A stretch of 64,000 bases of DNA. Origin: Octopus vulgaris (taxonomy: Eukaryota). Position 1 is the first letter of the stretch. Every line of letters starts with the position of its first letter. The stretch spans positions 45,136,001 through 45,200,000 of the forward strand of contig OX597830.1 in the NCBI GenBank assembly GCA_951406725.2, read 5' to 3'. The notes beneath the pieces were generated by a model that was not told the origin of the DNA, searched no databases, and saw only the letters and a program-made list of their open reading frames with translations. Made by a program: the position numbers and the translations under genes. Positions 35,433 through 62,377 of the stretch are shown here, piece by piece.

Positions 35433-62377
<26,945 letters not shown>

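What the first reader, a model, noticed from the sequence alone, without database searches (positions are those of the whole stretch)
55275..55298. Alpha-type nicotinic subunit with His at both loop-C tyrosines ([10 protein letters not shown])
Seen: loop C reads [11 protein letters not shown] (both His codons CAC), loop D reads [10 protein letters not shown], loop A keeps IYNN and loop B keeps GSW. Established: canonical alpha subunits have Y-x-C-C-x-x-P-Y (TyrC1/TyrC2) and a loop-D Trp forming the aromatic ACh box. Inference: three of five box aromatics are changed (Y>H, Y>H, W>F) while the vicinal Cys pair and the frame are intact. This suggests a receptor retuned to another ligand (another amine, protons or Zn2+ via the His pair) rather than decay. 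A-to-I editing cannot restore Tyr from CAC.
Basis: partly seen in the sequence, partly recalled or inferred. Interest (0 to 1): 0.8.

Follow-up and report, generated by a model that had tools for sequence, protein, structure and literature searches.

The report
Ancient acetylcholine-receptor subunit with rebuilt pocket
This octopus gene is an intact, spliced nicotinic-receptor subunit whose two acetylcholine-gripping tyrosines are histidines, as in most clams and limpets checked, and it likely cannot bind acetylcholine on that face and likely works as a helper subunit of an ion channel whose trigger is untested.

Summary
Loop C reads H-S-C-C-P-D-P-H (CAC at 55275 and 55296), loop D has Phe for Trp, and loops A and B keep Tyr and Trp. 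Six AG/GT exons give one open frame, identical over 543 aa to an annotated Octopus sinensis 'alpha-10' protein. Spliced contigs from four studies keep CAC, so this is no error, editing effect or decay. It is not an octopus novelty: the gene belongs to an old spiralian subfamily (100/98 support) outside the dopamine-gated DopC clade. The His pair is shared with bivalves and limpets (16 and 15 of 18 rows). Across the whole subfamily loop C is the labile part: first His 16 of 39, vicinal Cys 19 of 39. Pore and loops A, B, D, E are strongly conserved. That pattern fits an accessory, alpha5/beta3-like subunit (0.45) a little better than a channel retuned to another ligand (0.33); His-based pH or Zn gating is less likely (0.10). 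The oyster orthologue's motif is printed, uncommented, in a 2019 supplementary figure; I found no functional data. Side finding: likely A-to-I recoding in M2 (I287V) in octopus and cuttlefish.

The parts
35433..35578 (+). first coding exon found in the window (end of signal peptide, N-terminal helix, beta1); the signal-peptide exon was not found in the window
46893..46937 (+). 45-nt exon carrying loop D; Phe80 (TTT, 46926-46928) replaces the loop-D Trp
50202..50311 (+). exon carrying loop A; Tyr118 (50304-50306) kept
   Evidence: the spliced junction is seen as a loose end
54983..55527 (+). large exon: loop E, Cys-loop, loops B, F and C, M1, M2
   Evidence: RNA-like contigs of four studies start and stop at its ends
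55020..55022 (+). Tyr133 in loop E: an aromatic residue typical of the subfamily on the complementary face, at a site that is Asn in alpha7
   Evidence: Y 33, F 3, H 3 of 39 rows; alignment to alpha7; that it faces the pocket is inferred
55083..55127 (+). Cys-loop (C154-C168)
55146..55148 (+). loop B Trp175, kept, preceded by the alpha-type Gly; Ser178 stands where DopC has Asp
55275..55298 (+). loop C: His218 (TyrC1 site), Ser, vicinal Cys220-Cys221, His225 (TyrC2 site)
55419..55499 (+). M1-M2 linker and M2: cation-type G-E-K filter, Leu9', Met13'
55482..55482 (+). likely A-to-I recoding site, Ile287 to Val (M2 18')
   Evidence: A>G in X3, X6, X10, X13 (four studies); absent in X1, X2 and the DNA-like X15; the same I/V split in 5 of 8 full-length sepiid contigs
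59530..59723 (+). exon carrying M3 and the MX helix
   Evidence: junction seen as a loose end
61784..62377 (+). last coding exon: intracellular loop, M4, stop codon

Best explanation
The gene encodes an intact, spliced, cation-type nicotinic subunit of an old spiralian subfamily, and it likely acts as an accessory (alpha5/beta3-like) subunit that would co-assemble with a canonical alpha9/10-like partner, lining the pore and supplying a complementary face while its own loop C likely does not capture acetylcholine. Shown here: the gene structure, splicing, residue states, orthology and pattern of conservation. Inferred: that His at both tyrosine sites removes normal ACh gating from this face (recalled nAChR mutagenesis, not read here), that the protein is silent as a homomer, and that it needs a partner. 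The vicinal cysteines would then be a retained ancestral trait, kept in cephalopods, bivalves and limpets and lost in most snails, nemerteans, several annelids and flatworms. A plausible partner is the single-copy spiralian paralogue with a full aromatic box (L002 type), but that rests on a weak co-expression hint only.
For: Across 39 subfamily rows, loop C evolves about four to six times faster than loops A, B, D and E (mean relative rate 2.15 against 0.36-0.55), while M2 is at 0.14. TyrC1 is His in 16 of 39 and the Cys pair is kept in 19 of 39, whereas the DopC-like clade holds TyrC1 and both Cys in 30 of 30 (rates 0.08-0.09). Even among the 18 Cys-bearing molluscan rows the two His sites are less constrained (0.80 and 0.48) than TyrC1 is in the DopC-like clade (0.09). 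The subfamily forms one well-supported clade over five phyla, and one match of this kind was found in G000. The nearest outside row (Seison P0040) keeps all five aromatics, so the box was changed in this lineage. Related octopus subunits are known to be silent as homomers (DopC2, AChRB2/3; Courtney et al.). In oyster the orthologue's developmental profile tracks the L002-type gene best of six tested (rho 0.52 from trochophore on).
Against: No functional data. His225 is kept in 29 of 39 rows even where the loop tip is scrambled, and H-S-C-C...H is nearly fixed in cephalopods, most bivalves and limpets, which is more than a vestige needs. Loop B keeps the alpha-type Gly and Trp. The subfamily has its own conserved residues on both faces (Phe80 36 of 39; aromatic at 133 in 39 of 39), equally consistent with a rebuilt pocket. 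Loop F, on the complementary face, is also fast (1.80), and TyrC2 in the DopC-like clade is no more constrained (0.50) than His225. Oyster data do not show co-variation with the DopC-like gene (organ rho 0.37; development rho -0.29), and the L002-type organ correlation is only 0.40 (n = 8, single values). Loop C alignment across distant rows is unsure. The alpha5/beta3 comparison is recalled and is an analogy, not homology.
Confidence: 0.45

Rival explanations
1. It is an orphan agonist-gated cation channel (homomer or principal subunit) whose pocket was rebuilt for a non-cholinergic small molecule. Trp175, Tyr118, Phe80, Tyr133 and His225 would line the site, and loop C capping would be optional, as in chemotactile receptors.
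For: Subfamily-specific residues are conserved on both faces. Neighbouring branches of the same radiation did switch ligand: DopC to dopamine. Ser at the X of 'x-X-C-C' is shared with the tested DopC channels. The oyster orthologue has a neural-like organ profile, highest in labial palp at 12.5 RPKM. Pore residues are invariant.
Against: Loop C, which closes on the agonist in known nicotinic-type channels, is the labile part. DopC keeps TyrC1 and needs a loop-B Asp that is Ser here. Courtney et al. screened 41 octopus channels with about 18 ligands and the sections read report no such channel, though whether this gene was among the 41 could not be seen (closed supplement).
Confidence: 0.33
2. 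The His pair forms a proton or Zn2+/Cu2+ sensor that gates or strongly modulates the channel in cephalopods, bivalves and limpets.
For: Two titratable residues sit at both tyrosine sites of one hairpin and are kept together in most Cys-bearing molluscs (16 and 15 of 18). A His in the orthosteric site was proposed as a possible metal or proton sensor for Alpo4 (De Gieter et al., passage).
Against: The pair is broken in most other orthologues, including reversions to Tyr at C2 in three heterodont clams and Tyr at C1 in abalone. In ZAC the tested Zn2+ determinants were acidic residues with mild effects, and 'histidine' does not occur in that paper's text.
Confidence: 0.1
3. It is still an ACh- or choline-gated alpha subunit of low potency.
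For: It keeps the vicinal Cys, Tyr118 and Trp175 with the alpha-type Gly; Phe at loop D is still aromatic; in oyster the organ of highest expression is also the one with highest ChAT.
Against: TyrC1 is invariant in the related ligand-gated DopC-like clade (30 of 30). Many orthologues lack loop C landmarks altogether. Large losses of ACh potency on TyrC1 substitution are recalled; the paper sought was not held.
Confidence: 0.1
4. The His codons are an assembly error, an editing artefact or early decay.
For: None found.
Against: The same residues occur in three named octopods, a cuttlefish, bivalves and limpets. Eight of eight runs read CAC. The frame is open and spliced.
Confidence: 0.02

Closest known systems
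DopC dopamine-gated cation channels (Courtney et al., 10.1101/2025.04.02.646353; McRunnel et al., 10.1101/2025.10.31.685654)
   Same: Same invertebrate alpha9/10-like radiation (43 rows, 100/100); 53% identity to the likely octopus DopC1 over 318 aa; cation filter; Ser before the vicinal Cys.
   Different: Separate clade; lacks TyrC1, the loop-D Trp and the loop-B Asp needed for catecholamine gating. The likely DopC1 is another gene (L003, contig C12), identified here by motif and tree, not by gene id.
Vertebrate accessory subunits alpha5 and beta3 (recalled, not from a call)
   Same: Alpha5 keeps the vicinal Cys but has lost TyrC1; beta3 has lost the Cys pair; both occupy the fifth, non-binding position. 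Members of this subfamily show both states.
   Different: Not orthologous: this gene sits in the invertebrate alpha9/10-like radiation. It also changes TyrC2 and the loop-D Trp. Accessory behaviour is untested.
Cephalopod chemotactile receptors (CRs)
   Same: Derived nicotinic-type subunits with an altered ACh site (MolluscaGenes passages).
   Different: CRs are intronless and cephalopod-enriched; this gene has at least five introns, keeps the vicinal Cys, and has orthologues across spiralians. The weak, long-open-frame matches on contig C15 of G000 are only 26-31% identical.
Oyster OYG10006063 in Jiao et al. 2019 (PMC6896357), Fig. S4 and Table S1
   Same: The direct orthologue, printed with the same His-Ser-Cys-Cys...His loop; one of the alpha subunits without a full principal site (13 of 33 are complete).
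   Different: The main text does not name the gene or mention histidine; no function was tested.
Alpo3-like family 41A (De Gieter et al., PMC10338036), 'PSG unknown group 6' (10.1101/2025.06.15.659772), 'Alpha-A10a/b' (PMC13174522)
   Same: Published, uncharacterised lophotrochozoan clades near alpha9/10; 41A also loses the Cys pair in polychaetes.
   Different: Membership could not be tested because figures and supplements were not readable. 41A is said to keep the Cys pair outside polychaetes, whereas this subfamily also loses it in most snails.

Membership tests
Cys-loop (pentameric ligand-gated) channel, nicotinic type | Ligand-binding domain plus four-helix membrane domain, with a 13-residue Cys-loop | tested here: met
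   Pfam PF02931 E 1.2e-62 and PF02932 E 8.2e-37; C154-C168; model pLDDT 74.5 with best fold matches alpha4 and alpha7
Cys-loop channel, cation-selective | Glu at -1', no Pro at -2', hydrophobic 9' and 13' | tested here: met
   G-E-K filter, Leu9', Met13'; E-1' and M13' in 39 of 39 rows; by sequence only
nAChR alpha subunit (by nomenclature) | Vicinal cysteines in loop C | tested here: met
   Cys220-Cys221; present in only 19 of 39 subfamily rows
Canonical ACh-binding alpha subunit | Five-residue aromatic box (TyrA, TrpB, TyrC1, TyrC2, TrpD) | tested here: not met
   Tyr118 and Trp175 kept; His218, His225 and Phe80 replace the other three
Canonical ACh-binding alpha subunit | Gating by acetylcholine | not testable with these tools
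   needs electrophysiology
DopC dopamine-gated channels | Y-S-C-C with TyrC1 | tested here: not met
   H-S-C-C here; feature from McRunnel et al.; TyrC1 30 of 30 in the DopC-like clade
DopC dopamine-gated channels | Asp after the loop-B S-W-x-Y motif (D188 in Dm-DopC1) | tested here: not met
   Ser178; no Asp among 39 subfamily rows
DopC dopamine-gated channels | Clade with arthropod and nematode orthologues | tested here: not met
   That clade (100/98) holds the L003 gene; the window's gene is in a separate 14-row clade (100/98)
DopC2 of Octopus (LOC115215511, silent as homomer) | Identity with that gene id | tested here: inconclusive
   No table linking protein accession to gene id was found; a synteny attempt gave nothing clear
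Cephalopod chemotactile receptors | Intronless, cephalopod-enriched clade | tested here: not met
   six coding exons; orthologues in five phyla; feature
Accessory (alpha5/beta3-like) subunit, as a way of working | Loss of TyrC1 with conserved pore and assembly surfaces | tested here: met
   the alpha5/beta3 features are recalled
Accessory (alpha5/beta3-like) subunit, as a way of working | Silent alone; co-assembles with and modifies a partner channel | not testable with these tools
   only a weak oyster co-expression hint
Zinc- or proton-gated Cys-loop channels (ZAC-like) | Gating by Zn2+, Cu2+ or H+ | not testable with these tools
   The His pair is not universal in the subfamily; tested ZAC determinants are acidic residues
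Alpo3-like family 41A | Grouping with Alvinella Alpo3 | not tested
   The Alpo3 sequence and the figure were not available

The most novel reading that the evidence does not exclude
A spiralian-wide family of excitatory channels, separate from DopC and the chemotactile receptors, that gave up acetylcholine before molluscs, annelids and flatworms split and is gated by an unrecognised transmitter or by protons or metal through loop-C histidines, with RNA editing tuning its pore helix in octopus and cuttlefish.
Probability: 0.3. Interest if true: 0.8.

Novelty: new variant of a known kind. Interest (0 to 1): 0.45.

Why it matters
Most of the expanded spiralian nicotinic-type genes are orphans, and two branches of this family have recently turned out to detect dopamine or touch-taste compounds. 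This subfamily is old, has an invariant pore and, in G000, one copy. If it is accessory, it may be the missing partner that explains why several octopus subunits are silent alone, and it would be an independent origin of an alpha5/beta3-like role. If it has its own ligand, it points to an undescribed fast signal in molluscs, annelids and flatworms, schistosomes included. Natural variants (His/His, His/Tyr, Tyr/His, no Cys) give a ready panel for testing what loop C does.

Tried and rejected
Gene-id mapping to DopC1/DopC2: accession searches found 0 papers; the gene ids occur only in Courtney et al. and two unrelated papers; the Styfhals supplements had no hit (3 files searched, 1 unreadable); locating aromatic amino-acid hydroxylases as a synteny anchor gave contigs C10 and C27, which settled nothing. 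No run was on record as RNA (no RNA holder listed), so tissue of expression in octopus is unknown. Run X18 covered only part of the exon. The signal-peptide exon was not found in the window (best match 8 of 21 residues, with stops). No complex prediction was run, because any two Cys-loop subunits would be expected to pass by likeness to solved pentamers. The mutagenesis paper on His at TyrC1/TyrC2 was not held, and a search for such mutants gave three irrelevant papers. The MolluscaGenes supplement was too large to read and bioRxiv supplements are closed; both may already list this clade, or a null oocyte result for this gene. Three look-ups of earlier scan findings returned nothing. Rejected: DopC1 identity (motifs and tree), chemotactile receptor (introns, breadth), octopus-specific change (orthologues), error or decay.

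Full report
The observation. The + strand at 55275-55298 encodes H-S-C-C-P-D-P-H, both His from CAC. Six exons (35433-35578, 46893-46937, 50202-50311, 54983-55527, 59530-59723, 61784-62377), all bounded by AG/GT, give one open frame. It matches the Octopus sinensis protein XP_029646905 (P0075, annotated 'alpha-10') at 543 of 543 residues; the first 20 residues of that protein were not found in the window. Numbering below follows P0075. Alignments with alpha7 place His218 and His225 at TyrC1 and TyrC2 and Phe80 at the loop-D Trp; Tyr118 and Trp175 are kept. Pfam gives the two Cys-loop domains. The AlphaFold model (28-row alignment, pLDDT 74.5) has the standard fold, with alpha4 and alpha7 as best matches.

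It is expressed and not an error. Contigs of six runs guessed to be RNA, from four studies, cover the large exon from 54983 to its end and stop there. Loose ends matching the neighbouring exons are listed for X2, X3, X10 and X13. An intron-spanning, DNA-like run covers the whole stretch. Neither CAC differs in 8 of 8 runs laid, out of 24 listed. No run was on record as RNA, and contigs drop rare variants.

It is old and widespread. A search with the large exon gave 74 proteins. The top hits are cephalopods, bivalves (79-88% identity), abalone and limpets, annelids, nemerteans and snails; a brachiopod and flatworms follow lower down. A careful tree of 54 chosen rows puts 14 of them in one clade (bootstrap 100, SH-aLRT 98) inside an invertebrate alpha9/10-like radiation (43 rows, 100/100). 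It lies outside the clade that holds the L003 gene with Daphnia, crab, horseshoe crab, tardigrade and nematode proteins (100/98) (a quick 80-row tree agrees). Branching among these clades is unresolved, several rows are long, and skate alpha9 fell outside the radiation. No arthropod or nematode member of the subfamily appeared among the named hits, but only the best hits were listed. One match of this kind was found in G000 among 49 matches. The nearest outside row, a Seison protein, keeps all five aromatics.

It is not DopC1. Courtney et al. describe DopC1 as a dopamine-gated cation channel with arthropod and nematode orthologues. McRunnel et al. report that DopC keeps Y-S-C-C and needs an Asp after the loop-B motif. 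The paralogue L003 on contig C12 has these features and that distribution, so it is the likely DopC1; this is inferred, as no gene-id table was found. The window's protein is 53% identical to it, has His for TyrC1 and Ser178 for the Asp. Whether it is the silent DopC2 could not be settled; in the quick trees other octopus paralogues stand nearer to L003, but the careful tree leaves that open.

What the conservation pattern says. I took 39 subfamily rows, chosen by hand at roughly one per species from hits with at least 230 aligned residues, and estimated site rates. In the 18 cephalopod, bivalve, abalone and limpet rows the Cys pair is 18 of 18, His218 16 of 18 and His225 15 of 18. So the motif likely goes back to their common ancestor (over 500 million years, recalled date). 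In all 39 rows His218 is 16, the Cys pair 19 and His225 29, while Trp175, Glu-1' and Met13' are 39 of 39, Phe80 is 36, loop A is Tyr or Phe in 38, and position 133 in loop E is always aromatic (Tyr 33, Phe 3, His 3). Mean relative rates are 2.15 for loop C, 1.80 for loop F, 0.36-0.55 for loops A, B, D and E, and 0.14 for M2. In 30 rows of the DopC-like clade TyrC1 and both Cys are invariant, and TyrC2 is Phe in 28 at rate 0.50. Loop C alignment among distant rows is unsure, but the raw sequences show the loop tip rewritten in heterobranch and caenogastropod snails, nemerteans, several annelids, the brachiopod and flatworms. The subunit is therefore under strong selection as a pore-lining protein, while the loop that closes on the agonist is dispensable in many lineages.

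How it most likely works. A conserved pore and interface with an eroding loop C is the profile of accessory and non-alpha subunits. Vertebrate alpha5 keeps the Cys pair without TyrC1 and beta3 has lost the pair (recalled); this subfamily shows both states. I give the accessory reading 0.45. Against it, His225 persists where the rest of the loop is scrambled, the whole motif is nearly fixed in cephalopods and most bivalves, and the subfamily has its own conserved aromatics on the complementary face. A pocket rebuilt for another small molecule therefore stays close behind (0.33). Proton or metal gating through the His pair (0.10) is weakened by the loss of the pair in most orthologues; low-potency ACh gating gets 0.10. 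All functional steps are inferred.

Expression hints. The oyster orthologue OYG10006063 rises from gastrula to trochophore, stays on, and is highest in labial palp (12.5 RPKM; adductor muscle 0.3). Of six related oyster genes, the L002-type gene OYG10009628 tracks it best in development (rho 0.52 over 28 stages from trochophore on; organs 0.40). The DopC-like OYG10020157 does not (-0.29; organs 0.37). Its organ profile is closest to other, more distant nicotinic genes (0.98 and 0.92), which may only reflect nerve content. The oyster gene types were assigned by motif. These are single values and give a lead only.

What is in print. The oyster orthologue's loop is printed in Fig. S4 of Jiao et al. 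2019, which counts 13 of 33 oyster alpha subunits with a complete principal site. MolluscaGenes notes unnamed clades with substituted binding residues. 'Histidine' does not occur in the main text of Courtney, McRunnel, Jiao or MolluscaGenes. Searches for six accessions gave 0 papers, and topical searches showed no study of this subfamily. The library lacks most subscription papers. Courtney et al. tested 41 octopus channels; the list is in a closed supplement and may include this gene. Seen: Courtney, abstract, sections 6, 19 and part 1 of 10, passages; McRunnel, parts 1-4 of 6; the venom-gland preprint, section 8 and passages; Jiao, passages, supplement 4 whole and parts of 7; De Gieter, Wijckmans, MolluscaGenes, the ZAC paper, the alpha9alpha10 review, the squid atlas and PMC8840921, passages; Styfhals, supplement search only.

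Side finding. A>G at 55482 (Ile287Val, M2 18') appears in contigs of 4 of the 6 RNA-like runs of organism A, from four studies, and not in the DNA-like run. A>G at 55098 (Thr159Ala, Cys-loop) appears in 3 of 6. In the cuttlefish-like cluster members, 5 of 8 full-length Logan contigs have Val at the same M2 site and 7 of 8 have Tyr to Cys in M4, where the genome-annotated protein has Ile and Tyr. An intronic stretch near 59420-59431 is the best pairing partner of the 55482 site among 453 windows (-30.5 against a mean of -13.1, sd 4.8), a modest hint. Shared A-to-I recoding is likely, but DNA from the same animals is lacking.

Verdict. The finding is real, conserved and functionally uncharacterised as far as I could search. 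It is a new variant of a known kind: an old spiralian subfamily rather than an octopus invention, already annotated and visible in a published alignment. Interest 0.45; 0.8 if it proves to have its own ligand.

Noticed in passing
window 55482 and 55098: A>G in RNA-like contigs (I287V in M2, 4 of 6 runs; T159A in the Cys-loop, 3 of 6), absent from the DNA-like run. The same I/V split and a Y/C split in M4 occur in sepiid contigs: likely conserved A-to-I recoding.
   Followed up: partly
window 59420-59431: Intronic 12-mer complementary to the M2 sequence at 55482, about 100 nt before the next exon; a candidate editing-complementary sequence.
   Followed up: partly
window 51402-51551: Perfect 150-bp palindrome (75-bp arms, no spacer) in the intron before the large exon; a hairpin element or an assembly artefact.
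   Followed up: partly
window 58777-59050 (+); also about 40200-41400, 45000-46500, 48700-49300, 50600-51300: Broken retroelement- and transposon-like fragments in the introns. Pfam RVT_1 hit only the first of four pieces scanned; the other labels are by eye.
   Followed up: partly
window 54700-54800: Short repeat matched by hundreds of high-depth contigs in each run laid, likely a SINE.
   Followed up: no
window about 16300-17550: Near-identical peptides read on opposite strands about 1.1 kb apart suggest an inverted repeat pair.
   Followed up: no
L003 (G000 C12:84.24 Mb) and L004 (C12:84.96 Mb): The likely DopC1 lies about 0.7 Mb from an LnAChR-D-like paralogue. In spiralian DopC-like proteins TyrC2 is Phe in 28 of 30 rows, unlike the Tyr233 reported for Daphnia DopC1.
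   Followed up: partly
L013 (G000 C12:58.64 Mb) and L006 (C3:51.68 Mb): Two more octopus paralogues with altered loop C: L013 has Asp before the Cys pair and a later His; L006 lacks the Cys pair but keeps both Tyr. Proteins like L013 (P0325, P0371) group near the window's subfamily.
   Followed up: partly
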